Source: Lophium mytilinum
Lineage: Eukaryota
Length of the DNA: 64,000 nt
Reading direction: 5' to 3'
NCBI GenBank assembly: GCA_010093605.1
Contig: MU004198.1
Span: 250,726 to 314,725 of the forward strand
The notes beneath the pieces are model-generated. The model made no database searches. It worked only from the letters and a program-made list of their open reading frames with translations, and was not told the origin of the DNA. Below are positions 28,411 through 46,864 of the stretch, piece by piece. Every line of letters begins with the position of its first letter. The stretch's first letter is position 1. Made by a program: the position numbers and the translations under genes.

Positions 28411-30512
28411 ATGCCGCAAATTGGCCCCCTCAACGTCGCCTACTGGCACCTGGCGGCCGTCGTCGTCTTGGCGTATGTCGCGCGCTTGTACGGCCAGTAT
28501 CACCGTCTGAGACACTTCAAGGGCCCTGCGACGACGGGCTTCTCGGCCTGGTGGATGATTCTGGCTGTGAAGGGCAAGAAAGCACATTTGTCATATTCGG
28601 GAGTCAATGAGAAATATGGTAAGTAGCGCTATGTTGAGTTTGCTGCTTTTGTTGCTTTTTCTCAATTGCGTCTTATCATTGCCAGGTGGTGGTGAGAGAC
28701 CGCCGCGACGCTGCTGTGTAACGGCGACCAGCCGCTTTTCTTACCCTAATTTGTGTTTTTGTCTGCAGGATGCCGTAGAAGAGCGGCGGACCTGAAAGAG
28801 CTGGGGGAAGAGTGGTACAAAGACCCATTGCTGACCATGTTCGTACCCCACAGGCGCCCTCGCTCGTATTGGCCCCAACGACCTCCTCACCAGCTCCCCC
28901 GAGCTCTTATGGCGCATGAACAGCGTCCGATCTACCTACACGAAAGGTGGCTGGTACAACGGCTCCAGGATCCAGCCAGGCCGTGACAATGTGTTTAGTG
29001 GGATCGATGAGGACCGTCATACGAGTCGGAGGGCACAATTGGCTCCAGCTGTAGGTGTTTTCAAACCTCCTCTTTGGACACAAGAAACCCCTCTCTAGGT
29101 GGAAGAAGCCCACACTATGAGAATTTGAAGCAGAGAATCCATCGTTGAGTGATAAATCGGAAAAGAGTACAAAAGCTAACAAACAACCACCCACAGTACT
29201 CGGGCAAAGACATCCCCTCGCTCGAAGCCGAAATCGACGATCAGATCCACAACCTGCTGCACCTAATCCGGACCTCGTACCTCTCCACCCCAGGCCAATT
29301 CCGTCCCATGGACTTGGCCCGCAAAGCCCAGTTCTTCACACTCGACGTCATCACTAAGATTGCGTTTGGAGAAGCCTTTGGTGATCTGGAGAATGATAAA
29401 GATATGTACGAGTATATCAAGAGCACCGAGGACATGTTGCAAGTGATCATCATGGCTGCCACGATGCCGCTCATGAAGAGCATGTTCACGGTCGAGTGGA
29501 TTGGAAACCTGATGTTTCCGAGTGATAAGGACGGAGTCGGGATCGGGAAACTGATTGGGTGAGTACCTTTCATGTCAGTTTAAACTATCTGCGCCGCAGC
29601 CACGCAGACGTCAGAGTCCGCTCAGGCACTCGTCAAGCTCTCGATGCGTCTATCCAATGGCGAGATTGGTAGCCCTATTCCTGCTAGCTGTAACTGACGA
29701 TGTTACAGTATCGCCAAAGACCTCATCTCCCGCCGCTTCGGCCCCAAACCCATCCACCGCCAAGACATGCTCGACTCCTTCATGCGCCACGGCCTCAAGC
29801 AAGACGAGCTCGTCTCCGAGTCGCTGATCCAAATCCTCGCCGGCTCCGACACTTCCGCCACCACCATCCGCGCGACGATGCTGTATCTCATGTCCCACCC
29901 CCGCGTCTACCGCAAGCTCCAAGACGAAATCGACGCCGCCGTCCGCGCGCGCAAATCTGCCCAACCCATCATCACTGCCACCGAAGCCGCCGAGCTACCC
30001 TACCTGCAGGCCGTAATCAAAGAGGGCATGCGCATCTGGCCCGCCGTCACGGGTTTGCTGACGAAAGTCACGCCGCCAGAGGGCGATACCGTCGAGATCG
30101 ATGGCGAGACGGTGTATATCCCCGGTAACACGAATGTAGGGTATGACGCGTGGGCTGTGCATCACAGCAAGGAAGTGTTCGGACAGGACGCGAATCTGTT
30201 CCGGCCTGAGCGGTGGCTGGAGAAGGAGGGGGAGGAATTGAGCAGAATGCAGCGGACCGCGGAGCTGATTTGGGGATGGGGGAAGTATCAGTGCCTGGGG
30301 AGGCCAATTGCGACTATTGAGTTGAATAAGGTTTTTTTTGAGGTGAGTGCTTGCTTTGAGAGATGGGGGAGTTTGTGGCTAATAGATGGCAGCTTCTCCG
30401 CAACTTTGACTTCTCAGTCGTCGATCCGACGAAGCCGTGGAAGAGCGCGAATGTGGGACTGTGGATGCAGTCGGAGTTGTGGGTTGAGGTTACGGAGAGG
30501 AAAGCATCCTAG
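28411..30512 (+). CDS. Cytochrome P450 (pisatin-demethylase/CYP57-clan-like; 4 introns)
   Basis: N-terminal TM anchor, ARIGPNDL, I-helix AGSDT, K-helix EGMR, PERW, and heme motif WGWGKYQCLG. The last exon ends TERKAS*. Confidence 0.93.
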
Positions 30513-30829
30513 GGGCGAAGTGGGTGGTGGGTGGGTGGGTGGATGGCGGGAGACGGCATTGTAGATGTGAGCGTTCTTGTCGGTCGAAGCGGTAGCCTTC
30601 ATCAGCATGTAGATGTGAGCGTTTCGTTCCGCTAGTTCCATCCGAAATGTTATGACTGTAATGCTCTTGAAATGATTCAACAAAGTGACGGGTTATAGCT
30701 CTCTTGTGCGGCGTGCTCTCCCTGCGATTAATTGCGGGATTGAACTCGGTGGCTGGTTCTTTGAAGTTTCCTCTGCTCGGCATCCAATTCTTCACCGCTT
30801 GCATCGTTAGAGGTGGTGTAGTAGGATTA

Positions 30830-31060
30830 GATAGGCGCAGGCATATACTATAGAGGCTGTTGTCTTGTTTGAGCTTACCGCGCAGGCAGCTAGGGATACC
30901 ACCTCTGCTATACCACGTCAACCTCCTCTTAGTACTACTAAATAAGAAAGTTAAGATAGAAAGTAGCACCTATAAGTAATAATAAGACACCCTTCTATTC
31001 TATCTAGAGTAGAGTAAAAAGAATATCTAAGGAGCAAAACACCACCCTCATTAGAGGGTG
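30830..31060. repeat. Short AT-rich relic with a RIP-type dinucleotide signature
   Basis: A hand count over 30921-31030 gives about 20 TpA versus about 2 CpA and no TpG, in an otherwise GC-balanced neighbourhood. Confidence 0.6.
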
Positions 31061-31264
31061 TAGCCACCTCGGAGAGGTTTCTTTAGATCCATCCTGGAAT
31101 TCCGGAGCCCGCAATTCTTCAATCCATCGAATCTTCACCGGCCACTCTCAGCCTCACGCACCAACTGCATACAGCCTCTTTACCGGCTTCCAAGCCTCTC
31201 ATGCCGCCTCCGAGCCGGTTCCCAAAGGAAATCAGCTTTTAACACCATAAGTCGAGTCGAGAAT

Positions 31265-31418
31265 CGCCGACTGCTAGGGTCGAACGCCAGACCAACTTCT
31301 AAACTCAGGTGAGGAGTGTCGGCGGTGGGTAGAACCCACCTCGCGAGGTGCGATGCCTGGAATCCGGCCGCGGGCTTACACTCGGTGTGGCCGACTTTAC
31401 CAACTGAGCCACAGGACC
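31265..31418 (-). other. tRNA-like Pol III element (degenerate intron-containing tRNA pseudogene or tRNA-derived SINE head)
   Basis: The minus strand begins GGTCCTG-TGGCTCAGTTGG-TA (tRNA 5' end plus consensus A box, 31411-31400). B box GTTCGACCC at 31285-31277. The T-stem and acceptor 3' strand pair poorly. Confidence 0.5.
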
Positions 31419-31557
31419 TGCGAAAATTAGTTGGGAGTTTACCGAAATATACGAAATATATAGATAGGCTCGGGAGAGGTCACGCTTATAACGTCGCACT
31501 CATGAAACAATACAGAGATAGAAAACAGCATATGGATAGAACTACCTACGACTTAAC

Positions 31558-32515
31558 TCACGCCTTGCCCGCCGAATAACACACATCAAACTGCCACTCC
31601 ATCAGCTTCACCACCTTCTCCACCCCCTCCTCCATCAGCGTCGTCAAGCCCAACGTACTCGCCTTCTCCTTCAAATGCACCAAATAGTCATCCAACACCA
31701 GCTTATTTACATTGATCTTGCTCACGCCGAGCTGGATGCACCGCCGCATCGTAACCTCATCAAAATCATTCGTCCCATGCAACACAATCCGCACCCTCCC
31801 CGCCGCGAACTTCGCAATCGCCTCCAGCCGCGGATAATCCAACCGCGGCCCCCTTGCCCCATACTCCCCATGGACATTCCCAAACGCCGGCGCGAGAAAA
31901 TCCACCCCCGTCGCCATAAACTCCCCCGCCTCCTCCGGCGTCGTCAGCATGCCCTCCAAATCCGCCGTATCCGCGATGCCATCTTCACCCCCTTCGATGC
32001 GCCCGGGCTCGGCCTCCGTCGCGATCCCCCGCTCGTGGCAGTATGTCACGAGGGCTTTGGTCTTGGCGAGGTTCTCGGCTTTCTCGTAGTGCGACATGTC
32101 GACCATGATGGAGTCGAAGGGGAGGGTGTCGGCGGCGAGGCGGATGAGCGCTTCGTCCTGCGCGTGGTCGAGGTGGATGGCGATGGGGACGGTGGCGCGC
32201 GAGGCGGCGTCGGCGGCGGCGCGCACGAGGAGGCCGGCGGAGAAGGTGATGGCCCAGGGGAAGACTTGGAGGATTAGGGGGGAGCGGGCGTGTTCGGCGG
32301 CGCGGATGCAGCCGATTATGTGCTCGATGTTGTAGCTGGAGGGGGGTTAGCTGGGGAGGTCTTATAGCTTCTTTGCGAAGAGGAAGAGGAGGAAGGAGAG
32401 GTGTGGTAAGTGAAGAAGGAAAGAGGGCATACACAATGGCAGCGATTACCCCATAACCCCCCTCTTCCGCATCTTTCAAGATTTTCACGGTTTTGTTATC
32501 TTTGAGGTCTTTCAT
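31558..32515 (-). CDS. Class II ketose-bisphosphate aldolase (GatY/KbaY/IolJ-like type, not housekeeping FBA1; 1 intron)
   Basis: Zn-binding and catalytic motifs IHLDH, DSIMVDMSH, EAEPGRIEGGEDG, AFGNVHG, VLHGT and KINVN; about 290 aa. Confidence 0.93.
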
Positions 32516-32648
32516 GATTCCAATTTGTCAAGAACAGAGGACGGACAAAGAAGCTCCAAATTGGAGAGGTAGGGTATACCAACCCCTCTCCAGCGGCGTC
32601 CCATGGCGGTTAATAGCATCTCAGCACGCGTTGTGGTGTTAGGTCGTT

Positions 32649-32657
32649 AGCTCGGAG
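32649..32657 (+). promoter_or_regulatory. Candidate Zn2Cys6 binding site AGCTCGGAG in the aldolase/SDR bidirectional promoter
   Basis: The same 9-mer occurs at 37187-37195 in the TF/kinase promoter, and CTCGGAG occurs on the minus strand at 43019-43025 in the MFS/SDR promoter. Confidence 0.35.
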
Positions 32658-33033
32658 GGAAATCCGGCGAGGGATGATGCATGCCAAGCGGTCTCCACAT
32701 CCCACAAAAAGCGGGTTGACCTCGTGTCGAGTCTCCTTCATCCACGACCCGCTACTAACACCCAATGGATCTGTACCATACGCGCTATCCCCGCAGTCCC
32801 TGGGGCCCTGAGGGTGGGAAAGGTGGGTTGCCAATTGCGGGCGTGATTGAGGGGCAGAGGCGGGATGTGCCAGTAAACTGATACCAGGGAACGAGGAGTA
32901 TTAGAAACTCGAATAGACATACATTTATCCTTACGAGTCCTGTTCCTTACATCTGTTCCGCTTCGTATAACTCTCACGACTCTCATATTTCTCTCATCTC
33001 TCACATCTCTCACATCTCTCCCATATCTCCACC

Positions 33034-34105
33034 ATGTCCAAAGAAGTCATCACCCCCCAAAAGAAAATCACCCTCGAGGGCAAGATAATCGCCAGTACGC
33101 CGCCCCCTTCTTACTCAACTCAACCTCGACCCCAAATCTCCTCCCCAAACCCACCTTCTCCCCTCCCCCACCTCCTCACCTCCTAACCTTCCCCCCAAGT
33201 CACCGGCGCCAACCGCGGCATCGGCCTCGGCATCGCCGACTGCTGCCTCACCAACGGCGCCGCCCGCCTCTACAGCCTCGACCTCGCCTCCCCCTCCCCA
33301 GACTCCGATTTCACGGCTCTCGCGAAGCGGTTCCCGGGCCAACTCTTCGCCCTCACCGCCGACGTGACCAACGAAGCCTCCGTGACGGCCGCCGTGGACC
33401 AGATCATCCAGGAAGCGGGCGCGATCCATGGCATGGTGGTGAATGCGGGCCGCACGCTGCATAAGGCGGCGCTGGACTTCACGACGGCGGAGATTGAGGG
33501 GTTGTGGAATGTGAATGTGCGTGAATGCCTGGATCTGAGAAAAGGAGGGGGAGGGGGAGGGGTTAAGGGAAGTGCTAATGCGGTTCGGTGTAGTTATTCG
33601 GCTCCTTCTACTGCGCACGCGTTGCCGCGCGGGCGTTTATAAAGCTGAACATCAAGGGCTCGATCGTATTCACGGCATCCATGGCGTCGTACCGGCCTAA
33701 CAAGGTACGTCTCCCTTCCCCTTCCCTTAACCCCCTTTCCACCCCTCTCTCTCCTACCCCCTCCCCTCGCCCCCCTTTTTTGCTCACCGGACCCAGCGCG
33801 TCCCCTCCGCCCCCTACGGCGCCAGCAAAGCCGGCATCCGCAACATGACGCACACGCTCGCGATGGAATGGGCCGCGCACAACATCCGCGTCAACTCCGT
33901 CTCCCCAGGCCTCGTCAACACCGCCATGACGTACTGGGTGCCACAGCAGCCGGATTGGGAGAAGCAGTTAGAGTACTATGGGGGCATGCCGAGGCTGGCG
34001 GAGGTGGAGGAGCTGGGCGGCGCGTATGTGTATTTGTTGAGTGATGCGGCGAGCTATACGACGAGTATTGATATTCCGGTGAATGGGGTGATTGGGATTT
34101 GTTAG
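33034..34105 (+). CDS. Short-chain dehydrogenase/reductase (polyol/sugar dehydrogenase-like), paralog 1 (3 introns)
   Basis: TGANRGIG, Asp after beta2 (YSLD), NAG, catalytic S..YGASK and IRVNSVSPG. Confidence 0.93.
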
Positions 34106-34291
34106 GTGGGAAGCGAGAGTTGAGCGAGGTTTTGAGCAGTTTCGAGATATGAAAAGTGTGTTCTGGCCGTCTTTGTGCAGTCGAACATAGGGGAAGTCTG
34201 TTCAGAAGCAATCAATGTTCTGTGATTATTCAGCAAAGGTATGGTATCTATCCATGAACGCCCCTTTTCCAACCACCCCCCCCTTTCTTGA

Positions 34292-37062
34292 CTACCCCAT
34301 CCGCCCATCCCCCTTCCGCCACTCCCCGACCAACTCTTCCCCTAGCGAGTTCACCGGCCACCCCGTCCGCGACTGGTGTTCCTCGATCATGTGCAGTATC
34401 GCTTCCCGCTTCGGCGGCTCCTGCGTATACAGCCCCGCGCCAAAGAGGCATTGGGTGCTGACGACACACGCCGCTTCCTCGGTCAGAGTAGATGCAATGC
34501 CGCCGATAGCATCAATAGCATCAATGAGCTGTTTGCTGCGTTCCGCATACTCCAGGAAGCCGCCTGGCGCGGGCCGGTGGACTAAGAGAAGGATGCGGGC
34601 GAAGGAGTAGAGTTGGATTGAGACAGCTAGGGAAGGATCAGTGATTTCAACAAGGCATTTGACAGGCACGTGGGAAAGGGGTATAACATACCGAAAGCAG
34701 GCGGATTTATCCAGATAGGTTTAAACACCGCATTCTCGCTCCCGCCCTGCAACGGCAGCGGATTAAAATGCACGCTCAGATTCCCCTTCCACTCCTCCAG
34801 CGCCGCCAGCAGCGCGTCTGCGCGCTCGATCCTGGGCCGGAGACTCGCTTCCCCGATTTTGCACTCCTCGGCGGAGCTGTAGTTGACGGCTTGGACGAGG
34901 AGGTACACTACTCGGGACGCTATGTCGTACTGCTCCATCACATGATACGGTTTCGTAGGCTTGAAGAAGCTGAACGCTCGCCGACCTTCGCGGAACGCGG
35001 CCCATAGGTCCTGTCGTAGCCAAGCCCACCACACGGCTTGCTTGAGGCCGCCAGATTCGCCGTTGATGTCTTGGGAGCGCTGGATCCAGAAGACGCCTTT
35101 TAGATGGCGTTCCCAGCCTTTGCCGGCGCCGTCGATCATTTCGTACATTGAGACGATGAGGGCGGTGGCGATGAGCTCGAGGCTGCGGGTGTAGGATTCG
35201 TGTTTCATGGCGCGTTGGAGGTATTGCAGCGTTTCATAGTAGTACTGCACGGCTGTGGTGCGGTCGAGGAGCGGGCCGCCTGGTTCCATGGGTTTGATGG
35301 AGAGGTGGCGCGAGGACAGGGCCAGGATGGCTTTCATGAGACCTTCGTTCTGCAGCGCGAGTTGGGGGACGAAGGTGGAGAAGTGCTTCAGCGGGTCGTA
35401 CATGTCAATCCAATGGCTTAGGTTCTCGACGAAGCGGCGGAAGATGGGGATTTCGCGGTCGCGTAATTTGATGGGTGACTGCCAGGATTCTCGACCGTCC
35501 CCAGCCGGGGGAATGCTTCGAGGGACGGAAGTAGGGGCGATGTGGGCGAATCGTAGACTCGGGGTTCCGGTGGAGTAGGCAGACGCTGGGTAGGTTGGAC
35601 TCCGCGCATCGTCCATGAGATTTTCGTTGATGCTTGGGGATTTTGTGGAGAGGTTCTCGTGAAGGAACGCGAGGGAGCCATCGTCGGCTCCGTTCGCGGC
35701 GTCGTCCGCAAGGAGGCCGAACCATCTTAAAGGTGCGACTTCTACTCCATAGCCAGCTGATCCACTGAAATTCGATTGAGGGCTTGTTGTGTTGGCATCG
35801 TTCCAGCTTCCTTGATCTATGGAGCGTCGAGCTGTTTCTGGGCTGCTGATTTCTGGTATTTGTTTGCTCTGTCAAAATTAGCATACACTCGCCAGTTCAG
35901 TGGAATCCGGGTTGAAGGTCTACTCACGGAAGGAAGTGACGGTACTTGACTCTCTGGAGGACTCCAGAGTACCTGCGATGAAGACAGGTCTTTCGTTGCT
36001 CGTCTCGATTCCTCATCCTCGGGCGGTGGTGATTGTTCCTGTTGCCAATGCCCTACTACAGAATTGGGAGCTGGCCTGTCGCTCTCACTGGGAGTCAAAC
36101 TTGGATTCGCATTGTGTGACTGAAGCATGCGTTAGTAAGAGTACAAGAAAGGTAATGATGGTAATAATTGAGGTTCGAAATTGAAGGCAGTTACAAGGCT
36201 CGTACAACTCGTGCCACTTGATTGCAGAAATCTGCGTCACCTGTGCGATGAACCACAATCACGCATTGAGTGACAGTGACCGGACACGAGTCCTCTTGCA
36301 CGGGTTTAGGAGCCATAATGGTTATTGGGCTGTTTTAATCGTGTATCGGTACCACTGGATAGACGAGCCACGCGCGCAAGGATTGCCGTGAGCACGAAGG
36401 GTATTATTGGCCTCTCTTCGAGTGCCAGCAGCACACTTGGTAGAATGGACTAGACTAGGGTCCGTAAGAAGCAAGTCATCGCCGCCTTGGGTCTAGTGCC
36501 AACGTGTTTACCACGTGTGCGTGGTGTCTATGCAGGGCAAGGCGGTCTACCTCCCCAGCCTTATGGATCTATCTGATATCGAGAGACAGGTTTACAAGAC
36601 CTCAGATAGACGTTCAAGCATTCTGGGAACGAGCATTCGAGAAGAAAATAGGAACCTATTACCTTTGCACCGTAGACGCAATCTCTGCCACCTTTCGCAC
36701 AAGGTCCACAAGTCGGCTTTTGTTCATCACATTTCTAGAATGGCTACGTTAACGCTTGTTCGGTCCTTTGGAACAAGCTTGACGCACCATATGACGACGA
36801 CGGCAGATGGCACTGAATCAGTAGTTAGCAGGTGTTCACGATACATGAATCTCAATTGGAAAGTGGCGCATGTGCTGAGCAGCGGTGAAGCGTGAGAACT
36901 GGTCTCGGCACGGGCTTAGCGGAATAGCAACCGGGCAGCTTACCATCCCGTCGTGGTCCGCAGACCACGGCCACGAGGCTTCCTCGGCTTCCGCAGGCCG
37001 ACTGGGGCCTGCGGAGGTTTGGTGGGGGGGTCGAGGGGTGTGGAGGTGGGTGCTGGCAGCAT
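34292..37062 (-). CDS. Zn2Cys6 transcription factor with a fungal TF middle domain (5 introns)
   Basis: The spliced zinc cluster RGLRTTTGC|AICRRRHM|KCDEQKPTCGPCAKGGRDCVY is built from exons 37062-36944, 36812-36788 and 36734-36663. Then come APLRWFGLLADDA, WIDMYDP..HFST.VP, WERHLKGVFWIQRS and AVWWAWLRQDLWAAFRE. Confidence 0.92.
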
Positions 37063-37845
37063 CGTCTCGTGGCAGTAGGGAGGGCGAGGCGAAGTTGCAC
37101 GAAAAGGAATTTCAAACCCCATTCCCACGCCGACTCGAGACGGGGCCAGGAACAGTTCCGCGGCCCTTGGCGGCCTTAAACACGTGAGCTCGGAGAAATT
37201 GGTGGCGTCACCGAGCGTTGCTGCACCTCCTGGCCTCCCATGCAGCACCGCCCACGACCAAAGACACGCTCTCGGGATGTCGCTTCTGGGCAAGAAACGG
37301 CGGCCACGCAGAGCCTCACAGCCTTTCCATCGTCTACTCGCATTGTCTGAGTCGCACGTGAGTTGACTCGCGTACCTCCATCCCGGAATACCGCTTTGGG
37401 CCTTCCAGACGCTCTTTAGCAGAGGGGCGAACCATGCGGCAGCTGAGTGGTTGACTGCGTCTGGAACAACCCCTCCCGCATCCACGATGGCGGGGTGTCG
37501 ATCCACTGACCGGGGTAGCTTTGTGCATCACTTGGGTAGAGACAAGGCGGACGAAGCCTTTTGACTGCGGTTCGGGTCGAATGTGACAGATTTCAATCCT
37601 GAGCTCTGTATGTATTGTATATCTTCTTCTGTCAGACCGAATTCGGTTCTTATCATCTCGATTGATTCAGTGGGTGGGCAGCAGTGATGACTTCCTTTCA
37701 TCGACAGCATGTAGCGCTACTCCAATCGAGCCTCCCGGCATTTGAGCGGGCACGCGGACAAATAAATACATAGCCAGCCCCTCACGTCACGTAGCACGCG
37801 TTTGTCTCCAACTTTCCACACTCTTCGTGTTCTCAATTCCACATC

Positions 37846-39851
37846 ATGTCTACGAAGCACTTCTTTCCCCATACCGAGGGAGTCGTCGTTCAGGCCCTCA
37901 ACTCCCTGGTGGCAAGAAACCAGCATTTGGGACTCGATGAGCCCAACCGTGTCGTGTTCTCCAAAGCCCACCCTCCCTCACAAGTGACGGTGATTTCAGG
38001 AGGTGGTTCTGGACATGAACCTGCATGGTCAGGCTATGTCGGAGAGGGTATGTTGGCGGCTGCGGCGTGCGGAGATGTTTTTGCCAGTCCCTCCACCAAG
38101 CAGATCATGGCTGCGATCAAGAACGTCCCGTCTGACGTTGGCATAATACTGTGTATAACGAACTATACTGGCGATAAACTGCACTTCGGCCTGGCTTGCG
38201 AGAAGGGACTCGCACTAGGATATAACATCTCCGTGGTGAACATGGCAGAAGACGCTTCTCTCGGGAGGAAAAAGTCAGAACTGGTCGGACGACGAGGTCT
38301 TGCGGGAAACTTGCTTGGTAAGTGGCCTTCGTTCCTTTAGCACCTACTCTCCCTGAAACAGCTGCTAATCTCTCTTCTCTACAGTTCTGAAGCTTGTCGG
38401 AGCTGCAGCACAGCTTGGCTGGAATTTCGAACGATGCTTGAAACTTGGGAACCTCGGAAACGACCAACTGGTTACAATGGGTACAAGTCTTGATCACTGT
38501 CATGTCCCCGGACGAGCACATCATGAGGCCGTTCCAGAAGATGCGGTCGTGTTGGGAATGGGTATCCACAACGAGCCAGTTAGTCCTACTTTGGTGATGA
38601 TTGACGACTGAAAATCCTGCTAATATGACTGATAGGGACTTCGAACCGTATCACCAATGCCATCAGCGGAAGATATCGTCAAGGAGATGTTCCTCTTCCT
38701 CTTAGATCAATCAGACGCGGACCGTGCCTTCGTCAAAATCGAGCCAAAAGACGACGTCGTTATGCTGATTAACAACTTCGGTGGCCTGTCAGGTCTGGAA
38801 CTAGAAGCACTTACCAACATATGCCTTGTTCAGCTAAGTATGCTGGCATTCCTCTCCGCTCATATGAAGTTCGCTAACCCCAACAACAGAACGTGACTGG
38901 AAGATCGTCCCAAGTCGAGTATACGCAGGAGTTATGGAAACCTCGTTAAATGGCCCTGGCTTCTCAATCACCCTCGGAAACATCTCAGGGATCGCACGTA
39001 TCATGGAAACCAAAACGTCTGAAATCATCTCCCTGCTCGACCTCCCCACCACCGCCCCCGCCTGGCCAAAGAACGGGTACGCCCCCATCAAAGAAAACGC
39101 CTCTCTCGCACAAAACACATCCGGCGAAAGCAAAACCCCAGCCGCCCAAGGCCCCATAAGTGCGTGCCTCTCTCTACCCCTATTTCTAGCCTCCTTCACT
39201 TCAATCATACTAACAGCAACCACAGTCCCCGAGTCTTTAATCCCCTCCCTCCGCCAAGCCTGCACCGCCGCCATCAAAGCCGAGCCCCTGATCACAAAAT
39301 ACGACATCCAAATGGGCGACGGCGATTGCGGCGAAGCCGTCGAGTTCGTCTGCCACCGCATCGTCTCCAAACTCGACGAGCTCCCCTCGCCCACCTCCAC
39401 CCACATCTTTCCCTTGCTCGACCGCATCATCGACGCCGTCGAGGACACCGGCGGCTCCCTCGGCGCCATCATCTCCATCTTACTCACCGCGTTCTCGAAC
39501 TCCCTTCGTTCGATCGAGAAAGCGAATCCTAAAGGGTTTACTTTGGATGCGCAGACGGTAGGTAAGGCGGCTGGTCCGGCGATGGAGAATCTGAAGCTGT
39601 ATACGTCTGCGCGCGTGGGCGATCGCACGGTGATGGATGCGTTGATTCCGTTTTGTGAGAGTCTTGAGAAGGAGGGAGATTTCGGGAAGGCGGTGGCGGA
39701 GGCGGAGAAGGGGGCCAAGGCGACGGCGGGGATGAAGGCACGGTTTGGAAGGGCGACGTATGTGGCGGATGATAAGGCGCAGGAGGGGGACATGCCGCCT
39801 GATCCGGGGGCTTTTGCGGCGGGGGTGTTTTTGAGGGGGTTGGAGGGGTGA
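37846..39851 (+). CDS. Dihydroxyacetone-kinase-family (Dak1+Dak2 fused) ketose kinase (4 introns)
   Basis: GGGSGHEP, NYTGD, GRRGLAG, DHCHVPG, GMGIHNEPG, GDGDCG, GDRTVMDAL, ARFGRATY and PDPGA. Confidence 0.95.
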
Positions 39852-40782
39852 AAAAGGGTGACGAGACTAGGTTCGCGTTGTTTAGCATGGTATCGATACT
39901 TTGTGTTCTTTATTGACTACAGCATATCGACTGTGAAGTGAGCGATGAGCTTCGAATTGGCCCCTTACCCTCGAGACTTTGCCAGCACACAAACCGCACC
40001 GAAGCACCCCGGCCCCTTTCTCGAGTCCCCAGTTTCCTCAATAGCCAGTTCTAATTAGAAACCTCTTAGCAACAGCTTCCCCAATCGCCCCAATCTCCAC
40101 CCATAATCGCCGTCTTTCTTCCCTCGATCCCATTCCCTGCCTCCCGTCTCTCAACATCCCCCGCATCCGATCCCGTGTGCTGAAACCCTCTCGACACCTT
40201 ACTGTATAAACCACAACGCACGGAATTTCGCAGAACAATTTGAAAACGTATTCTCCACCTCTGCTCCATTCGTCTATTTATCACTTCTCACCTCTGTCTC
40301 TTAAGCGCATATATACATCGCTGAAAATTTCCAGATAGTTGCGGATTTAAGACTTCATTGAACCGTAACCTAATCACAGCATTCAAAAACCACAGTCTTA
40401 GTTACTGGGAGGTAAAATGATGTCGCTAGGAATAGGGAAAGTAATTAGGATCCTTGGGACGTGAAGCTTGGCCGGGGTTGAGGCGATGAGAGGTGTGATA
40501 TGTTAGGTAGTAGAAGAGTAGCAGAGAAGAGCTCCAGCCGAGAAAACTGAGAGTGAACGCAGCGAGGAGCTCAAGCATAAAAGATTAGAGCCATTAATAA
40601 GAGTAGTGGTCCTCTTATCAAAGGTCACCGCAAGATCAACCCACAGCCGTAAGAATGCATAACTTCATTATCATCGCTCACTCCACAAACTCCCGCTCAA
40701 GCCCGTATATACCACACACCCCACAGTCAGATCTATATACAACCCCACCCGCCCCCAAAAGCGCAACAACCCCTCGTCCATC

Positions 40783-42354
40783 TCACTTCGACGGATATCT
40801 CCTAATAACCACATGCGACACCACATAAACCCCCACCCCAAACGCACACATCCCACTAATAACCCCAAACCCGAGCAAATACTTCGGCGCATCCTCCTTC
40901 GGAAACAGATACGCGCCATAAATCTGCGCAAGATTCCCCATCGCATTCACAAACGCCAGACTGACCGCGCGCACCTCCTGCGGCATGGACCCGAACGTCG
41001 AGGCGCTGTAGCTCAGCGCGAGCCCGTTGGAGGCCCACAGCCCGGCGGCCATGAAGACCAGCAGCACGTAGCGCGCGGTGAAGTTGTAGATGGTGCAGAC
41101 GAGGATGCTGCAGATCATGGAGAGGGTCAGCCAGGCGGCGATGACGATGCCGCGCTGGGTGGGGTGTTTGTCCATGAAGTAGCCGGTTATGCCGACGGCG
41201 AGGAAGGCGACGGCGTAGATGGGGACGACCTGGGGGGTGGTTGGGTTAGTGTTGTCGTTGACATGGGAGTTTGATGCGAGTGGTAGAAGTCGTGGGAGGG
41301 GAGGATGCGTACCATGTATTGGGCCATGTGGCTGGTGTAGCCGAGCCCCTTGACTAGTGTTGGGTAGAAGTAGGAGAGGGTGGAGGAGCCGACGATGACC
41401 ATGTACCCGGCGGTTAGCAGCCAGGTCCTCCAGTTGCTGAGGGCCATGGCGAGGGCTTGGAGGGAGGTGAGGCGGGGGTTGTCTTCTGTGCGCGAGGTCA
41501 CTTCGTCGGCGGCGAGCCGGCTGATGGCGAGTTCCCGTTCACGGGGGGTCAGGCGGGCGGTGTTGGCCGGGAAGTCGAGGAGGATAAAGTGCGAGCAGAT
41601 GGCCCAGAAGGCGGTTGCGGCACCTTCGACGATCTTGAGAATGTTAGTCATGGTGGTTGGAATGGAGAGGGGAAACTTACGAAGAGCCATCGCCACCCTT
41701 CTAACCCGCGGACACCGTCGAGGCCGCCTGTGATAGCACCAGCGAGGATGCCGCCGAATGCTCCTGAGAGAACAGCGGCAGAGATGTAGACAGCGAAACG
41801 CTTGGCCTGTTCATCCTTCTTATACCACGATGACAGGATGAGCAGGATACCAGGCGCGAACCCAGCTTCCAAAACACCGACTATCAGCCGTAACGAAAGA
41901 AGCGCGTGATAGCTGTGTGCGAGAGACATGCAGCACGTTACGGCTCCCCACAGCGTCATGATGATCGGGAGATAGATAGAGGGCTTCGTCTTTGATAAGA
42001 TGAGGTTGGACGGGATCTCGAACACGACGTAGGTGATGAAGAAGACAACAAGGGAGATGGAGTATTGGCCTGATGTGAGATGCAGGTCAACGTCCATGCC
42101 CGCGACTTTAGCGTTGCCAATACTGACGATTATTAGTTGGTGGAATTGATGACCCCTTGATGGGAGCACATGGTATCTCACTTGGTACGGTCCATATAGG
42201 ACAGGAGATACATAAGCCATATCGTCGGTAAGAGGAACAGATCGATCTTCCGGACGAGAGCCTTCTCTTCCGCTTTCAGCGCTTCGTCGTCCATCGACGG
42301 CTCGTACGCCTCGATCTGCTCAGCATCGGGGGTTTGCTTGAGATCTAGCGACAT
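40783..42354 (-). CDS. MFS transporter of the allantoate-permease / anion:cation symporter type (3 introns)
   Basis: LVRKIDLFLLP...SYMDRTNIGNAK, FEIPSNL, EAGFAPG, SSWYKKDE..KRFA, GLEGWRWLFIVEG and NAMGNLAQIYG. Confidence 0.93.
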
Positions 42355-43365
42355 GATAGTGGAGGCAGGCAGGTGGCCGAACAAGGAGAACAATCTGCAA
42401 TTGAAATCAAGGAAGGAGCTGGACTAGGAGACTCAAAAGCGCGTAAAACTCGTGGAACTGACTGAACAAGGAAAGCAGGAAGATGTGAGAGTATCAGAAT
42501 GAACAGAGGTTATATAGCATCGCGGGCTCGCATCTTGAATCGAGCAGTCCAAGGTCGAATTCCAGCCTTTTGCCCTAAAACCAGGATGCACGGCCGCTAT
42601 TCGCATTGGCTGTCGAAAAGCGGCCGAGACAAATTCGCCGAAGAACGAGCGTCCTGACCCAGATGCCAGGGAAGCCATGGCGAGCGACCGGTTGTCGGTA
42701 GCCTAGCACATCCTGTGATGGCCCCGCGCTGACCTTCTCCAGTCTTCTGGGGAACTTGTGGAGGCGAAAATGGGGAGGGAGGCTAAGGGGCGTGGAGTCG
42801 TAGTAAAGAATGGGGATAGACTCGGCACGAGGCCAGAAGCTCGTCTCGGGGCAGATATATGGCCACCCTGCGACCCAATCAACCTCCCAGGCCGTCTTTA
42901 ATCGGGCCATCCCCACAATCTCTCAACCTAACGAAACCACCTGTTGAGCCTCGAAGCGGTGTCCCCGGGTAGAGGTGGCCTCAGCACTAAAGTCGCTCGT
43001 AGCTCCCACGGCGCGAAGCTCCGAGGTACCCACAGAGGCTCCGGACCGCATGTATGGACGCGCACCGTGATGCTGTGCCGTGGGGGAGAGCTTTCAGGGA
43101 AGATGGGTCTTTCGCGGTGGGAGATGTGCCGACGTTCTTTCCGACGTGTAGAATAAGTATCATAGGGTCCTGCGCTTCTCTTTCTTGCTATCTGCGCTTG
43201 TCGTTTGTCTGAGTCTCTGTCCTCCAGCTTCTTCCTCTCTACTGAATCTCACAGCTGTTGTCTAAATATCAATCTTCCCTCAAACCCTCCCTTCTCAACC
43301 TGAGTCTATAGACTCGTGTCTTCACACTCCCATTGAAAGCACCGATTCCCCTCTAAACCCTCACA

Positions 43366-44367
43366 ATGGGCTCCAACGAAAACGGCGCCGGCGTGTCTTC
43401 TGCTGCCGCTCCCTCTTCCACAACGACCCCCCTCACCACCCAACCCCCCGCAAACTTCAACTGGCAAATCACACTCGCCTCAAAAGTCATCGCCATCACA
43501 GGTGCCAACCGGGGTATCGGCCTCGGAATTGCAGAAGTATGCCTCGCCAACAGCGCGAAAATGGTGTACTCGCTCGATCTCATGGACCCCTCAGAAGACT
43601 TCGCCGCCCTGCACAAGAAGTACCCAAACTTCAAGTACATCCAGATGGACGTCACAAACGAAGAGAGCGTGCAGAAAGCCATTGATAGTATAGTAGAGGC
43701 CGAGGGCCGAATCGACGGTTTAGTAGCGAACGCAGGCATGACGAAGCACCAACCCGCCCTAGACTTCACAAGGGCAGAGGTAGAGAAGTTGTTTAATCTG
43801 AACGTGAGTCTCCAAAATCCCCATCGTCCTCATCCCAACCCAATCAACTCCTAAACCTACAATCCGGTAACCCCCTAACCAACCCAAACCCCCGCCTCCA
43901 CCTACCAACCGAAGCCCCAATATCTCTAGCTAATGCCCACCCCCTAGGTCTTCGGCGCCTTCTTCTGCGCCCAAATCTTCGCCAAAAAATGCATCGCCCT
44001 CGGCACCCCCGCCTCCATCGTCTTCACCGCCTCCATGACCTCCTACCGCCCCAACCGCGCCGCCCCCTCGGCCCCCTACGGCGGCACCAAAGCCGCCGTG
44101 CGCAACATGACCCACACGCTCGCCATGGAGTGGGCGGCCCACGGCATCCGCGTCAACAGCATCTCCCCCGGCTTCGTGAAGACGGCGATGACGTACTACG
44201 TCGAGAAGGCGCCGGACTGGGACCTCAAGATGCAGTATTACGGCGGCATGCCGCGGTTGGCGATGCCGCAGGAGCTGGGAGGGGCGTATGTGTATTTGTT
44301 GAGTGATACGGCGAGTTATACGACGGGGATTGATATTCCGATTGCGGGGATTGTGGGGGCGTGGTAG
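43366..44367 (+). CDS. Short-chain dehydrogenase/reductase, paralog 2 (1 intron)
   Basis: TGANRGIG, YSLD, NAG, YGGTK and IRVNSISPG; closely similar to the SDR at 33034. Confidence 0.93.
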
Positions 44368-45065
44368 GGGGTGGGTGGGTGGCCGAGGGTGAGTGGGTGG
44401 TCGGGGTTTAGAGTGTATAGGGGGGCTCTGGCGTTGGCATTTATGGTGTTATGATATATCTAGACCGACAGATATCAATAGAAGAGATTGCGGTGCTTTG
44501 TCCGATGTCTTTTTTTTAAGTGTAAGACTGCTGAATACTCCCTCCCGCGTACGCCTTCTTTTACACATACCGCATCTCTGTCCCCTCACCTCCGTAGTCC
44601 CTCTCTAAAGACCCTAAGCAAGCTCGAGGTGTTATGTTGTTGTGATAAGGTAGTGCGGTATAACATATCAGACGTAGAGAGGAGAGCAGAGGAGGAAGCA
44701 AGAGTTCGATGCGAAAAATAGAGCGGACGGTCGTCAAAGTGCGGGTAGCGCAGTGGGCAGCAATAGTAGATAGTTGAGGAATAGCTGGTGCTATTAGCGG
44801 TCCGTTGACGGGATACGTGGAGGAACCCGCGGCTTGCCCCATTGAAGCAGGAAAAATCGCCTCTACTATTTCAACAACCTATGTTTGCATGACCCAGGTC
44901 AGCAAGCTCAGCGGTTCGATGAAGCAGCCAAGCCCAAAGAAGAGCTGTGACTCCACCCCAAACTCACCACCACGCGAATGTACCTCTAGACCTCAAACGC
45001 CCACAAATGCTGCTCAGAACGCCATCCCATGCCCCCCTTTTCTCCTAAACCTCCCCCTCCCCTCT

Positions 45066-45901
45066 CTAACCCGATCCCCCCCTTCCAAGCACCTCCTCCC
45101 TCTCCAACACCTCCCCCCTAAAACAAATCAAAAACACCGTCTTCCCCGGCCACATCCTTCCCTCCACGCCCCCACCCCCCTCCTGCTCGCCCACACTATG
45201 CGCACTCACCCCCGTCGTCGGGAACCCCGCGCCATCACAAACCCCCTCAATAACCCCCGCCACAAACGCCGCGCAGTTCAGCTGGCTCATCTCCCTCGGC
45301 AGCGAAATATACGTATTCGGTAAGGGGTCGTTGTCATACAGCATGTACTGCGCGGGGTCCGACTCGCTCTTCTCGAGCGCGTCGGCGGGCCGGTTGAAGA
45401 GGTGCCGCCAGAGGGTTTGCGCGATGAATTGGAGGAGGGGGAGGATGCGCGTAGGGCGAAGGGACGGGGGCGGGAGGCGGGTTAGGAGGAGGTCGAGGAG
45501 GCGGAGGCCGAGGGGGTAGCCTTGTTGGTTTAACCTGTAATCACCCGTATATTAGCAACTTCCACCTAAATTTTGAAGGGTCTTCTCAAGGCCCTCCTAC
45601 GGGATTCTTACCGTCTCTCGAGGTCCGCAATCCCCTTCACCCGCTTCTGCGCATAGCTTATCATCTCGACAAACAGGTACGCAAACGCCGCCCGGCTCAG
45701 CTCCGCGTTTTTGCTGCGGTTTAGGTTGCGGTCGTAGATTGTTTTCTTGTTCGAGGGGTAGCGGAGTCCCGGCGTTGCAGCCATGGCGGTGCCGCCGCCG
45801 CGTTGGGAGACTGTTGCTGCAGGCGGGCCGGCGGTGCTGGAGGAGGGGGCGGGTGTGGGCGCGGGTTTGAGGGCGCGGGGGGCAGGGTGGGGAGTGCTCA
45901 T
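45066..45901 (-). CDS. TRS31: TRAPP complex subunit Trs31/TRAPPC5 (1 intron)
   Basis: TIYDRNLNRS..ELSRAAFAYLFVEMISYAQ, WRHLFNRPADALEKS and ISLPREMSQLNCAAFVAGVIEGVCDGAGF..VSAH. Confidence 0.95.
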
Positions 45902-46864
45902 TTCCGGATTGGCAAGGTGTATTGTGTGGAATTGGGGTGGTGGATAGAGGAGCTTTGAGGGTTGAGGTTTGAGGTTTGAAGTGGAGTGGAGGTTGGGGAG
46001 AGGGAAATGGTAGCTCCGCTTTTTCTGCCTTGGGGATCAGGCGCTAGGATCATACTTTATGCATATCCAGTGAGCACACTTGCTCATCACCGTTTGAGGT
46101 GCTTCAACCAATTATGAAACTTCTGATAATACTGCAAGGCGCTGAGGGTATGAATCGGGGAGTTTTCAAGCGCCTACAGTCGGCCTGCTTGGCCGCTGTT
46201 TGTGGTGTCTCAGCACATTATCATATTTCTGAACGAGAGCAAACGCCGTCGTGCCCAAAGTCGTATCCTAGTGCATAGCAAAGAATCACATGCTCTCCGA
46301 AGAACCGCCACAAGTATTAACCAATCGCTCTAGGCTCTTCACTATAATTATATTTTTACACTCGAAGCGAGAAAGCGCCTGCTTGCACGGCTCCAGCTGT
46401 GCGCTCACTCATAATATCCACTCTTCCCCGCCTCCCCCTGGTATGCAGTTCGCTGAAAAAACAACCACCACCATCAGCAAGAAGCCCACATCCCATCAGA
46501 GCCCTTCATAGAAAACCGGGCCCAGCGTAGAAGAAACGCCATTCCTCTCAGCAAGGCAGAATCGAAACAGAATAAAAACCACATTTTTGTGCCCTCCAGA
46601 CTAAAATCCATTCCACGGACCAAGCCCAACCAACTTAAAACCATTATAAACTCTAAACCAAACAAAAGAGAAACGGGGTGCCCAGTATCGTACGGTCGTG
46701 CTAGCAAACATCTGCCTGATATCTCACAGCGAAAGAGAAAGAAAGCCGGAAAGTGGCGGGGTATGTTGAAGTGGCGAAAGCAAAAGAGAAAATGGAGGGA
46801 GAAGACGCTGTCAATTACATGACTTAGGGGTAAGGAAGTTGCGTGTGCGTGAAGGAAAGGTGGA

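What the first reader, a model, noticed from the sequence alone, without database searches (positions are those of the whole stretch)
31558..44367. Six-gene self-regulated cluster for an uncharacterised sugar-acid/polyol pathway (MFS, 2 SDRs, DAK-family kinase, class II aldolase, Zn2Cys6 TF)
Seen: three consecutive divergent pairs, aldolase(-)/SDR(+), TF(-)/kinase(+) and MFS(-)/SDR(+), all with intact catalytic motifs and bounded by a repeat relic and housekeeping TRS31. Known: DAK-family enzymes phosphorylate the CH2OH next to a keto group (dihydroxyacetone, erythrulose). Class II aldolases of this type release DHAP from ketose phosphates (GatY, IolJ). Allantoate-permease-type MFS proteins carry organic anions. 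Characterised fungal sugar-acid routes such as galacturonate and rhamnonate are non-phosphorylative. Inference: an aldonate or polyol is imported, oxidised to a keto compound, phosphorylated and cleaved to DHAP plus an aldehyde(-acid). That would be a bacterial-style phosphorylative route, analogous to IolC/IolJ, that I do not recognise as described in fungi.
Basis: partly seen in the sequence, partly recalled or inferred. Interest (0 to 1): 0.85.

Follow-up and report, generated by a model that had tools for sequence, protein, structure and literature searches.

The report
Fungal sugar-acid chain-shortening gene cluster
Six linked fungal genes, apparently switched on by their own regulator, seem to form an undescribed route that imports a sugar acid, oxidises it, removes one carbon as CO2 and feeds the rest into central metabolism; the substrate is inferred, not shown.

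Summary
Six intact genes lie in three divergent pairs, and 14 of 17 predicted introns appear as joints in an RNA run. Subsets of the cluster recur across filamentous ascomycetes. A conserved promoter element, TCGTCTCGAG, sits upstream of the aldolase-like gene in 21 of 23 orthologous loci (2 of 24 paralogous loci) and in this cluster's promoters, so a regulon is likely.

The 'aldolase' misses every fructose- or tagatose-bisphosphate aldolase cut-off. It nests among the decarboxylase-type domains of plant/bacterial threonate (LTD/2-OtnC) proteins, not with GatY/FBA-like ones. Elsewhere the regulon adds a sugar porter, an LraA-like aldose dehydrogenase, a lactonase, a DenD-like dehydrogenase and RpiB. 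This genome's unlinked RpiB carries the element.

Best reading (0.45): a C5 aldonate such as D-ribonate or D-arabinonate is oxidised, decarboxylated to erythrulose, phosphorylated by the DAK, then isomerised to erythrose-4-phosphate. Rivals: tetronate to DHAP plus CO2 (0.2); retro-aldol to DHAP plus an aldehyde-acid (0.18). No activity is shown. Ten literature searches found no description; the Aspergillus niger counterparts are annotated by homology only.

The parts
31558..32515 (-). Class II aldolase-fold metalloenzyme (PF01116), 286 aa, exons 32515-32433 and 32335-31558; 2-OtnC/LTD-related 'clade A'; proposed oxo-aldonate (isomerase/)decarboxylase
32516..33033 (.). Divergent promoter aldolase-like/SDR1, with variant element TCGTGTCGAG at 32722-32731 (score 10.8, weak; the same variant occurs in L045 and L096)
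33034..34105 (+). SDR1, 265 aa, 4 exons; Asp after beta-2 (NAD-type), S-Y-K triad, Arg/Lys in the substrate loop; 63% identical to SDR2
34292..37062 (-). Zn2Cys6 transcription factor, 639 aa, 6 exons (37062-36944, 36812-36788, 36734-36663, 36119-35928, 35868-34692, 34626-34292); PF00172 + PF11951
37062..37143 (.). Two copies of the candidate TF site in the TF/DAK divergent promoter: 37062-37071 (+, score 15.5, touching the TF start codon) and 37134-37143 (-, score 14.8)
37846..39851 (+). Two-domain ATP-dependent DAK-family kinase, 587 aa, 5 exons; above the TIGR02361 cut-off; proposed erythrulose (or DHA) kinase
40783..42354 (-). MFS transporter of the anion:cation symporter type, 460 aa, 4 exons; best model TIGR00893 (D-galactonate transporter), below cut-off
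42841..42850 (+). Candidate TF site in the MFS/SDR2 divergent promoter (score 15.2)
43366..44367 (+). SDR2, 285 aa, 2 exons; NAD-type, invariant Arg180 and Arg183; 77% identical to A. nidulans AN2402
30995..31410 (.). Left boundary, not part of the pathway: dispersed repeat with 7 long copies elsewhere in G000
45066..45910 (-). Right boundary, not part of the pathway: TRAPP subunit (TRS31-type) gene

Best explanation
A TF-controlled regulon that shortens a sugar acid by one carbon. (1) The MFS imports an aldonate; other fungi also make it from the aldose with a sugar porter, an LraA-like aldose 1-dehydrogenase and a lactonase. (2) SDR1 and SDR2, or a DenD-like enzyme in some fungi, oxidise it with NAD+ to a 2- or 3-oxo acid; the two paralogues probably take two stereoisomers. 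(3) The aldolase-fold Zn enzyme forms the enediolate as class II aldolases do but releases CO2, giving a ketose one carbon shorter. (4) The DAK phosphorylates that ketose. (5) RpiB, unlinked here but carrying the promoter element, turns D-erythrulose 4-phosphate into erythrose 4-phosphate for the pentose phosphate pathway. The most likely substrate is a C5 acid of the D-ribonate/D-arabinonate type. Shown: genes, splicing, co-conservation, shared promoter element, family placement. Inferred: every reaction, the order of steps 3 and 4, the substrate, and TF binding. The broad claim (self-regulated sugar-acid catabolic regulon) I hold at about 0.9, a decarboxylating route of any chain length at about 0.7, and this C5 version at 0.45.
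For: Decarboxylase kinship: after fungal hits, the best profile hits include LtnD-DUF1537-aldolase fusions. In a 40-row tree the fungal family (100/100) nests among them (97/89), with 14 FBA/GatY-like rows on the other side (98/98). PMC12540250 states that 2-OtnC, a decarboxylase, has this Pfam domain. Paralogous loci pair with LtnD-like (5 of 21 groups), DenD-like (3) or FMN hydroxy-acid dehydrogenase genes (3). Acid substrate: LraA-like gene in 6, sugar porter in 4 and lactonase in 2 of 22 clade-A groups. The same set forms A. niger NRRL3_08835-08842. SDR Arg180 and Arg/Lys183 are present in 118 of 118 rows, in the loop where Ltn3D binds the carboxylate. C4-ketose product: RpiB lies beside the gene in 3 of 22 groups, and between it and the DAK in L031/L044. 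TPI and DUF1537 kinase occur in 0 of 80 loci. RpiB is the only one of 11 tested G000 promoters scoring 14.7 or more (background 2 of 256 tiles). Precedents: the bacterial D-ribonate route via erythrulose, DerK and an unidentified decarboxylase; Yarrowia EYK1 is a DAK homologue acting on erythrulose beside an RpiB. Sister unit: N. crassa NCU10110 (HIBADH-like), NCU04401 (aldolase-like) and NCU04400 (DAK) are XLR-1-bound and in the pentose/xylan module.
Against: No enzyme activity, inducer or mutant is known for any of the six genes. The characterised 2-OtnC sequence is not in my trees; the clade is labelled by fusion architecture. The fungal family has changed the LHGAS and NVNT residues that LTD-type domains keep, so function may have moved. 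The DAK passes the glycerone-kinase equivalog cut-off (596 vs 575), and its best solved relative is named dihydroxyacetone kinase. The SDRs resemble polyol and gluconate-5 dehydrogenases, which oxidise the penultimate carbon; that fits the C4 or aldol routes better. RpiB is linked in only 3 of 22 groups, and the RpiB/DAK promoter in L031 scores only 8.6. The DAK is linked in 1 of 22 metagenome groups, is absent from the A. niger cluster, and lies on a different contig from SDR2 in several Pleosporales. The motif is not enriched genome-wide (103 vs 119 control), and its count in the window alone is weak (3 vs 1.07; 9 of 100 shuffles).
Confidence: 0.45

Rival explanations
1. Tetronate route. A four-carbon acid is oxidised at C3 by the SDRs. 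The DAK phosphorylates 3-oxo-tetronate (or DHA after decarboxylation), and the aldolase-fold enzyme releases CO2, giving DHAP. The DAK stands in for the DUF1537 kinase.
For: The nearest described relatives act on tetronates. DenD-like genes lie in 2 of 22 clade-A groups with the promoter element upstream. In a tetronate the penultimate carbon is C3, which suits this SDR class. The DAK passes the glycerone-kinase cut-off. An SDR-to-DHA-to-DhaK shortcut is discussed for Ltn3D.
Against: G000 already has LtnD-like plus clade-B enzyme (C20) and DenD-like plus DUF1537 kinase (C11), none with the element. DHAP needs no RpiB. An aldose porter, dehydrogenase and lactonase for a tetrose seem less likely than for a pentose (inference).
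Confidence: 0.2
2. First reader's route. The SDRs oxidise the penultimate carbon of a C5/C6 aldonate, the DAK phosphorylates the terminal carbon, and a true retro-aldol gives DHAP plus glyoxylate or tartronate semialdehyde.
For: The fold and Zn ligands are those of class II aldolases. The SDRs resemble mannitol, gluconate-5 and arabinitol dehydrogenases. The chemistry fits all three enzymes without an isomerisation. Invariant Lys/Arg239 could hold a phosphate or carboxylate. Housekeeping malate synthase could remove glyoxylate (established knowledge).
Against: The enzyme groups with decarboxylase-type domains. No aldehyde-disposing enzyme appears among 128 ORFs from 16 clade-A loci; malate synthase occurs only in one non-A locus. 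The route does not explain RpiB or the DenD-like 2-dehydrogenases in the regulon, nor the missing DAK in the A. niger cluster.
Confidence: 0.18
3. D-apiose/D-apionate route. The branched pentose from pectin RG-II is oxidised to apionate; oxidation, a hydroxymethyl shift by the aldolase fold and decarboxylation then give erythrulose, as in bacterial route 3 but without ApnO.
For: Bacterial route 3 ends in erythrulose, LerK and RpiB-type EryI, and apionate shares the C2/C3 configuration of erythronate and ribonate. The A. niger LraA paralogue is not specifically induced by eight common monosaccharides, which suits a rare inducer.
Against: No ApnO-like gene was found in any clade-A locus scanned. 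Route 3 gives L-erythrulose and needs a TIM-like isomerase, which is absent from 80 loci and has no element in G000. The carbon shift is speculation.
Confidence: 0.08
4. Polyol (erythritol/threitol/arabitol) route like the Yarrowia erythritol cluster: SDR, DAK and RpiB, with the aldolase-fold enzyme cleaving a ketose 1-phosphate.
For: The Yarrowia cluster has a Zn2Cys6 TF, a DAK-like kinase, a dehydrogenase and RpiB. The SDR family is auto-named D-arabinitol 2-dehydrogenase.
Against: The transporter is of the anion type. A lactonase and an aldose dehydrogenase are in the regulon. The SDR loop carries invariant arginines. The Yarrowia cluster as described has no aldolase-fold gene.
Confidence: 0.06
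5. Chance neighbourhood, or two unrelated mini-clusters.
For: No metagenome locus holds all six genes; SDR2+MFS and SDR1+aldolase-like often lie apart.
Against: Pairwise linkage in 14 named genomes, 18 of 22 vs 0 of 21 locus groups, and one promoter element across both modules.
Confidence: 0.03

Closest known systems
Bacterial three-step tetronate pathway (LtnD/DenD, 2-OtnK, 2-OtnC) and Arabidopsis LTD (AT1G18270)
   Same: A dehydrogenase, a kinase and a PF01116 aldolase-fold enzyme acting as decarboxylase. The window enzyme nests among LTD-type domains.
   Different: The kinase is DAK-family, not DUF1537. The dehydrogenases are classical SDRs. The phosphate-site residues differ. The genes are separate and under a Zn2Cys6 TF, and RpiB is in the regulon.
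Bacterial D-ribonate pathway (Rib2D, OrnI, unidentified decarboxylase, DerK, DerI), known to me only through PMC13753588 and PMC12994016
   Same: C5 aldonate oxidised, decarboxylated to D-erythrulose, phosphorylated and isomerised by an RpiB-type enzyme: the chemistry proposed here.
   Different: No OrnI-type isomerase in the fungal loci. A dedicated aldolase-fold gene is present. Orthology of the SDRs to Rib2D and of the DAK to DerK was not tested.
Ltn3D (L-threonate 3-dehydrogenase, SDR; PMC12994016)
   Same: An SDR that oxidises C4-C6 sugar acids, with an Arg in the loop after the catalytic Ser binding the carboxylate.
   Different: Ltn3D prefers NADP+ (Arg-Arg); these SDRs have the NAD-type Asp. 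The loop is two residues longer, and Asn181 has no counterpart by spacing. No sequence comparison was possible.
Yarrowia erythritol utilisation cluster (EUF1, EYK1, EYD1, EYI1, TpiA2; PMC5992420)
   Same: A fungal cluster with a Zn2Cys6 TF, a DAK-like erythrulose kinase, a dehydrogenase and RpiB leading to erythrose 4-phosphate.
   Different: It starts from a polyol and includes a TIM-like isomerase. It has no aldolase-fold gene and no anion transporter.
N. crassa NCU10110-NCU04401-NCU04400 and A. niger NRRL3_00967/00968 (sister 'clade B' unit)
   Same: A paralogous aldolase-fold gene (52-54% identity for the G000 copy) beside a sugar-acid dehydrogenase and, in N. crassa, a DAK. Also uncharacterised.
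   Different: It uses an LtnD-like dehydrogenase, is XLR-1-controlled and xylan-induced in N. crassa, and lacks the TCGTCTCGAG element. Clade assignment of the N. crassa and A. niger genes is inferred from published orthogroups and neighbours.
Class II FBA / GatY-KbaY / IolJ aldolases; PDB 3PM6
   Same: TIM-barrel fold and Zn ligands; 3PM6 is the closest structure (TM 0.92).
   Different: The enzyme is below all family cut-offs and lacks the second phosphate site. 3PM6 is itself only a 'putative' aldolase.

Membership tests
Class II fructose-/tagatose-bisphosphate aldolase | TIM barrel with Asp-His, two further His Zn ligands and Asn | tested here: met
   D84, H85, H183, H214, N236 in 120 of 120 homologues; fold
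Class II fructose-/tagatose-bisphosphate aldolase | Score above a curated FBA, GatY or KbaY model | tested here: not met
   Best 174 vs 343 (TIGR01859), 172 vs 216 (TIGR00167), 167 vs 383 (GatY); 0 of 20 families passed
Class II fructose-/tagatose-bisphosphate aldolase | Phosphate-site residues: Ser after the beta-2 Gln, Ser in LHGAS, D-T-x-x-R after the Asn (roles recalled; paper not held) | tested here: not met
   F53, N217, N238, K/R239, L242 in 120 of 120; alignments to 1RV8, 1GVF, 3C4U
2-OtnC / LTD decarboxylase domain | PF01116 domain grouping with LtnD-DUF1537 fusion domains | tested here: met
   (97/89 inside; 98/98 against FBA/GatY-like rows)
2-OtnC / LTD decarboxylase domain | Partnered with a DUF1537 kinase and LtnD | tested here: not met
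   DUF1537 kinase in 0 of 80 loci; in G000 it lies on C11, unlinked
2-OtnC / LTD decarboxylase domain | LHGAS and NVNT motifs kept by LTD-type domains | tested here: not met
   Window has LHGTN and NVNK
2-OtnC / LTD decarboxylase domain | Orthology to the characterised Arthrobacter enzyme; decarboxylase activity | not testable with these tools
   Sequence not on hand; paper not held
ATP-dependent glycerone kinase (TIGR02361) | Dak1+Dak2 domains, His/Asp/His site, score above cut-off | tested here: met
   596.2 vs 574.95; H57 and D110 120 of 120, H219 117 of 120
Erythrulose kinases (EYK1, DerK, LerK) | Orthology or preference for erythrulose | not tested
   No sequence or model on hand. T105 (120 of 120) replaces the Lys of 26VK and 1UN9, but the lone C1 DAK has Met there
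Ltn3D-type sugar-acid 3-dehydrogenase | Carboxylate-binding Arg seven residues after the catalytic Ser | tested here: inconclusive
   Arg at +5 and Arg/Lys at +8, invariant, in a loop two residues longer
Ltn3D-type sugar-acid 3-dehydrogenase | NADP+ site with two Arg and no Asp | tested here: not met
   D71 in 117 of 118 rows
Yarrowia erythritol cluster | RpiB and TIM-like isomerase genes inside the cluster | tested here: not met
   RpiB on C19, TPIs on C19 and elsewhere on C18
IolC/IolJ route | PfkB-family kinase beside the aldolase (recalled) | tested here: not met
   The kinase is Dak1/Dak2; no PfkB among 128 ORFs of clade-A loci
Anion:cation symporter (D-galactonate transporter type) | Match to TIGR00893 | tested here: inconclusive
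   Best model for a window exon (E 1e-31) and for the A. terreus orthologue (185.7 bits vs cut-off 395)

The most novel reading that the evidence does not exclude
Filamentous fungi carry two parallel, undescribed routes that shorten pentonic acids by one carbon and deliver erythrose 4-phosphate: this regulon, and the XLR-1-controlled sister unit, probably for D-xylonate. Both rest on a class II aldolase fold retooled into a phosphate-independent oxo-aldonate isomerase/decarboxylase, an activity so far unassigned even in the bacterial D-ribonate pathway. The two 'extra fructose-bisphosphate aldolases' placed in glycolysis in Aspergillus metabolic models would then be misannotated.
Probability: 0.3. 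Interest if true: 0.82.

Novelty: new variant of a known kind. Interest (0 to 1): 0.64.

Why it matters
Fungal sugar catabolism is thought to be well mapped in A. niger, N. crassa and T. reesei, yet this family sits in the models as spare glycolytic aldolases. The neighbouring LraA paralogue was called of unknown function in 2025. If the reading holds, it adds an oxidative-decarboxylation entry for sugar acids into the pentose phosphate pathway and a new activity for the class II aldolase fold. It also supplies a candidate regulator with a predicted DNA site. That bears on how fungi recycle oxidised plant sugars and on strains built to accumulate xylonate or other aldonates. The work turns an orphan cluster into specific tests in laboratory fungi.

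Tried and rejected
Literature: ten searches found no paper describing this cluster or assigning these enzymes. Most subscription papers are outside the library. Guo 2024 (2-OtnC) and an FBA structure paper were not held; Flipphi 2009 and Luo and Huang were seen only as cited. Expression values for NRRL3_08838 on nine sugars (PMC9781776 supplements) and the full N. crassa carbon-source panel (PMC7084071) were not seen and may name the inducer. PMC5674754 names NRRL3_08837 as the deleted lraA; I treat this as a locus-number slip, because two other papers give lraA = NRRL3_01494. Earlier scan findings: nothing. RNA: no holder on record as RNA was listed; run X1 gives contigs only, so no expression level. 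Bacterial context: plasmid searches gave only 32-42% generic hits, and the best SDR hit lies in a histidine-related operon, uninformative. The 13 cyanobacterial loci whose neighbours were scanned show no conserved neighbours. ESM Atlas gave generic family names. No solved structure was found for the MFS orthologue. No tRNA in the window. Rejected: the C20 paralogue being fused to DUF1537 (it is standalone); the C12 LRA1-like gene being a regulon member (it sits beside an amidohydrolase-type lactonase like true LRA1 and has no element); the flanking P450 being part of the cluster (no element of 14 or more left of the cluster). A first TF model was off by one base and was corrected. The 100-row tree finished only as a quick search; the 40-row careful tree left out 60 rows, including two long branches. 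No AU test was run.

Full report
VERDICT. The six-gene cluster is real, intact, spliced and conserved in parts across filamentous ascomycetes, and it shares a promoter element that makes self-regulation likely. The evidence moves the cleavage step from an IolJ/GatY-type aldol reaction towards decarboxylation, and the product from DHAP towards erythrulose phosphate. No reaction has been shown.

1. OBSERVATION. I read 30000-46000 and built spliced models in scripts. All six frames are open, with 17 GT-AG introns. Three models are identical to database proteins P0001, P0121 and P0243. The TF starts further upstream than a plain ORF list suggests: its six-cysteine cluster is split over three small exons and joined to the body by a 543-nt intron. 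Contigs of one run listed as possibly RNA show joints at 14 of the 17 introns, including all five in the TF. The SDR1 introns are not among the 15 rows shown (3 withheld), and one shown joint fits no intron. These contigs give presence, not level. The flanks are as described: a dispersed repeat with 7 long copies and a TRAPP gene. The window is G000:C18:250726-314725.

2. CO-CONSERVATION. Locus tags and accessions in the top-120 lists (120 of 2854, 7962 and 1202 hits) and in cluster look-ups place two of the genes within five numbers of each other in 14 named genomes. Aldolase-like/SDR2 are adjacent in three (M1837, VTO42DRAFT, M1834). Aldolase-like/DAK are close in four (B0A55, H2201, Glonium, Pseudovirgaria), DAK/SDR in six (LTR85, LTR36, LTR53, LTR78, Saccharata, Mytilinidion), and SDR2/MFS in A. 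terreus. Against: SDR2 lies far from the DAK in ACEQ8H and H2201, on contigs of other lengths in four more Pleosporales, and 18 genes from the aldolase-like gene in H2199. These lists give no prevalence. A metagenome scan kept 80 of 149 confirmed loci, which collapse to 63 groups. Of 22 clade-A groups of at least 4 kb, 18 carry at least one partner (TF 14, SDR1 5, MFS 5, SDR2 3, DAK 1); of 21 other groups, none does. No locus holds all six. L031 and L028 are clade A by a thin score margin; the tree supports L031.

3. THE WIDER REGULON. Clade-A loci add an LraA-like aldose dehydrogenase (6 groups; 309 bits against cut-off 400 for NF053807), a sugar porter (4), RpiB (3), an SMP-30 lactonase (2) and a DenD-like D-erythronate dehydrogenase (2). 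A. niger has the same set at NRRL3_08835-08842, without a DAK (supplement rows of PMC11537073); I equate it with clade A by gene content, not by sequence. PMC6231085 assigns NRRL3_08838 and NRRL3_00967 to 'Fba' by homology (passages) and lists one DAK for A. niger (supplement rows). PMC12028159 says the LraA paralogue NRRL3_8837 is not rhamnose-induced and gives no clue to its function (passages). The window's version lacks the porter, aldose dehydrogenase and lactonase and has an anion-type MFS instead, which suggests that it takes up the acid directly (inference).

4. PROMOTER ELEMENT. I compared 600 bp upstream of the aldolase-like gene in 23 clade-A and 24 other loci. GTCTCGA was present in 21 against 2 (Fisher P 4e-9; 659 features tested). 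The loci are related and some are near-copies, so P is optimistic. A matrix trained on those loci alone (44 sites, core fixed) gives four scores of 14.7 or more in the 64-kb window, all inside the cluster: two in the TF/DAK promoter, one in the MFS/SDR2 promoter, one in a TF exon. The aldolase-like/SDR1 promoter has a weaker variant (10.8) that recurs in L045 and L096. In other fungi sites lie upstream of the LraA-like, DenD-like, SDR/MFS, porter and RpiB genes; background is 10 sites of 14 or more in 267.5 kb of paralogous loci. The motif is not enriched genome-wide, and the bare count in the window is weak; the placement is the evidence. That the cluster TF binds it is inferred. Among 11 G000 promoters of related genes, only RpiB (C19), the gene I set out to test, has a strong site, 413 bp upstream and identical to the one in the TF/DAK promoter; 2 of 256 background tiles reach that score.

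5. THE 'ALDOLASE'. It has the fold and Zn ligands of class II aldolases (pLDDT 91; best match 3PM6, TM 0.92, itself only putative). It passes none of 20 NCBIfam aldolase cut-offs. Aligned to Thermus and Helicobacter FBA and to AgaY, the positions I recall as phosphate ligands are F53, N217, N238, K239 and L242, each invariant or nearly so in 120 homologues. After fungal proteins, the best profile hits include C-terminal domains of LtnD-DUF1537 fusions: 11 of the 18 long hits I scanned carry DUF1537-type domains, and P0505 has the plant LTD layout. The best prokaryotic genome hits are cyanobacterial singles at 37-41%; two non-cyanobacterial hits lie near DUF1537 kinases. In a careful 40-row tree the fungal family nests among the fusion domains (97/89), and 14 FBA/GatY-like rows form the other side (98/98; same split in the quick 100-row tree). 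Those rows are labelled by motif and architecture, not by tested function, and two 'fungal' rows are unnamed. PMC12540250 (passages) reports that 2-OtnC, which turns 2-oxo-tetronate 4-phosphate into DHAP and CO2, has this domain. So it likely works like a 2-OtnC. It is not filed as one: it lacks the DUF1537 partner and the LHGAS/NVNT residues.

6. KINASE, SDRs, TRANSPORTER. The DAK passes the glycerone-kinase cut-off and keeps the catalytic His, Asp and His. It is one of three DAKs in G000; the others are a lone copy on C1 and one in a transketolase cluster on C13. DAK chemistry needs a ketone next to the phosphorylated CH2OH (established knowledge), so on a 2- or 3-oxo C5 acid it can act only after CO2 loss, on erythrulose. 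PMC5992420 (passages) describes EYK1 as a DAK homologue acting on erythrulose beside an RpiB gene. SDR1 and SDR2 are 63% identical and each other's closest relatives in the genome. They have an NAD-type Asp and two invariant basic residues in the loop after the catalytic Ser, the loop whose Arg binds the carboxylate in Ltn3D (PMC12994016: abstract, parts 1-2 of 8, section 6 and passages). Their best solved relatives are mannitol, gluconate-5 and similar dehydrogenases, which argues for penultimate-carbon oxidation and keeps the rivals alive.

7. SISTER UNIT. G000 has a 52-54% paralogue on C20, divergent from an LtnD-like gene, and a DUF1537 kinase near a DenD-like gene on C11. In N. crassa, NCU04401 (aldolase-like) and NCU10110 (HIBADH-like) share one XLR-1 peak, NCU04400 is a DAK, and all three fall in the pentose/xylan module (PMC7084071 passages and supplement rows). 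NCU04401 and NCU04400 rise from about 1-2 FPKM on sucrose to 151-1042 and 72-387 on xylan (PMC4620465 passage and supplement rows; I read the conditions from column names). I place this unit in clade B from the published orthogroup and its neighbour. A xylan-induced dehydrogenase, aldolase-fold enzyme and DAK suggest a C5 acid, D-xylonate, which shares the C2/C3 configuration of L-threonate. This is independent support that the family couples to DAKs and may handle pentonates.

8. MECHANISM. Most likely: aldonate import, NAD-linked oxidation, Zn-enediolate decarboxylation to erythrulose, phosphorylation, and RpiB isomerisation to erythrose 4-phosphate. RpiB without a TIM-like isomerase points to D-erythrulose 4-phosphate, hence a D-pentonate. 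LraA-like and DenD-like partners point to the ribo configuration (inference from family specificity; ApnO paper part 1 of 9 and passages). The same paper gives the bacterial D-ribonate route with an unidentified decarboxylase.

9. NOVELTY. The chemistry has bacterial and plant precedents, so this is a new variant of a known kind. The enzyme combination, the fungal regulon and its element were not found in ten searches of a library that lacks most subscription papers. PMC6231085 cites an earlier proposal of a tagatose-bisphosphate aldolase in A. nidulans, which I could not read; PMC9781776 still lists NRRL3_08838 under glycolysis (supplement rows and passages). Unseen supplements on sugar-wise expression could name the inducer. 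Interest 0.64: a widespread orphan pathway in well-studied fungi, now with testable predictions but no biochemical proof.

Noticed in passing
G000:C20:156370-159270 (L002, L004:819-2274): Standalone clade-B aldolase-fold gene divergent from a two-domain LtnD-like dehydrogenase; the same pair occurs in 5 metagenome groups and matches A. niger NRRL3_00967/00968.
   Followed up: partly
G000:C11:814162-818900 (L191, L192): DenD-like dehydrogenase (over the NF043036 cut-off), an aldo-keto reductase and a DUF1537 kinase side by side. With C20 this gives the genome a full three-step tetronate gene set; a second DenD-like gene lies at C1:1428329.
   Followed up: partly
G000:C13:12000-24200 (L013, L014): Another orphan cluster: PF11951-like TF, sugar porter, third DAK, polyol-dehydrogenase-like SDR and a transketolase; probably polyol or ketose catabolism.
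   Followed up: no
N. crassa NCU10110/NCU04401/NCU04400: XLR-1- and CRE-1-targeted three-gene unit, a candidate D-xylonate pathway; no description found.
   Followed up: partly
L061, L066, L090: Clade-B aldolase-fold gene next to an FMN 2-hydroxy-acid dehydrogenase (cytochrome b2-like in L061, L066), a fourth type of entry dehydrogenase for this family.
   Followed up: no
L031:7657-18964: Six-gene variant TF, aldolase-like, RpiB, DAK, MFS and DenD-like, with no SDR1/SDR2 within the fetched range.
   Followed up: partly
window 30995-31410: Roughly 400-bp non-coding dispersed repeat, 7 long copies at 80-92% identity; no tRNA called.
   Followed up: partly
window 28376-30512: Cytochrome P450 gene just left of the repeat; no promoter element, not treated as part of the cluster.
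   Followed up: no
window 40900-41751: One contig of run X1 joins across 850 nt inside the MFS gene with non-canonical ends and only 21 letters on one side; probably an assembly artefact.
   Followed up: no
L097-L115: Cyanobacterial 2-OtnC-like aldolase-fold genes stand alone, without conserved neighbours.
   Followed up: partly
L058:1025-2527; L078:9223-9873: Malate synthase (L058) and carbonic anhydrase (L078) lie near non-A family members; single cases that point to opposite products (glyoxylate or CO2).
   Followed up: no
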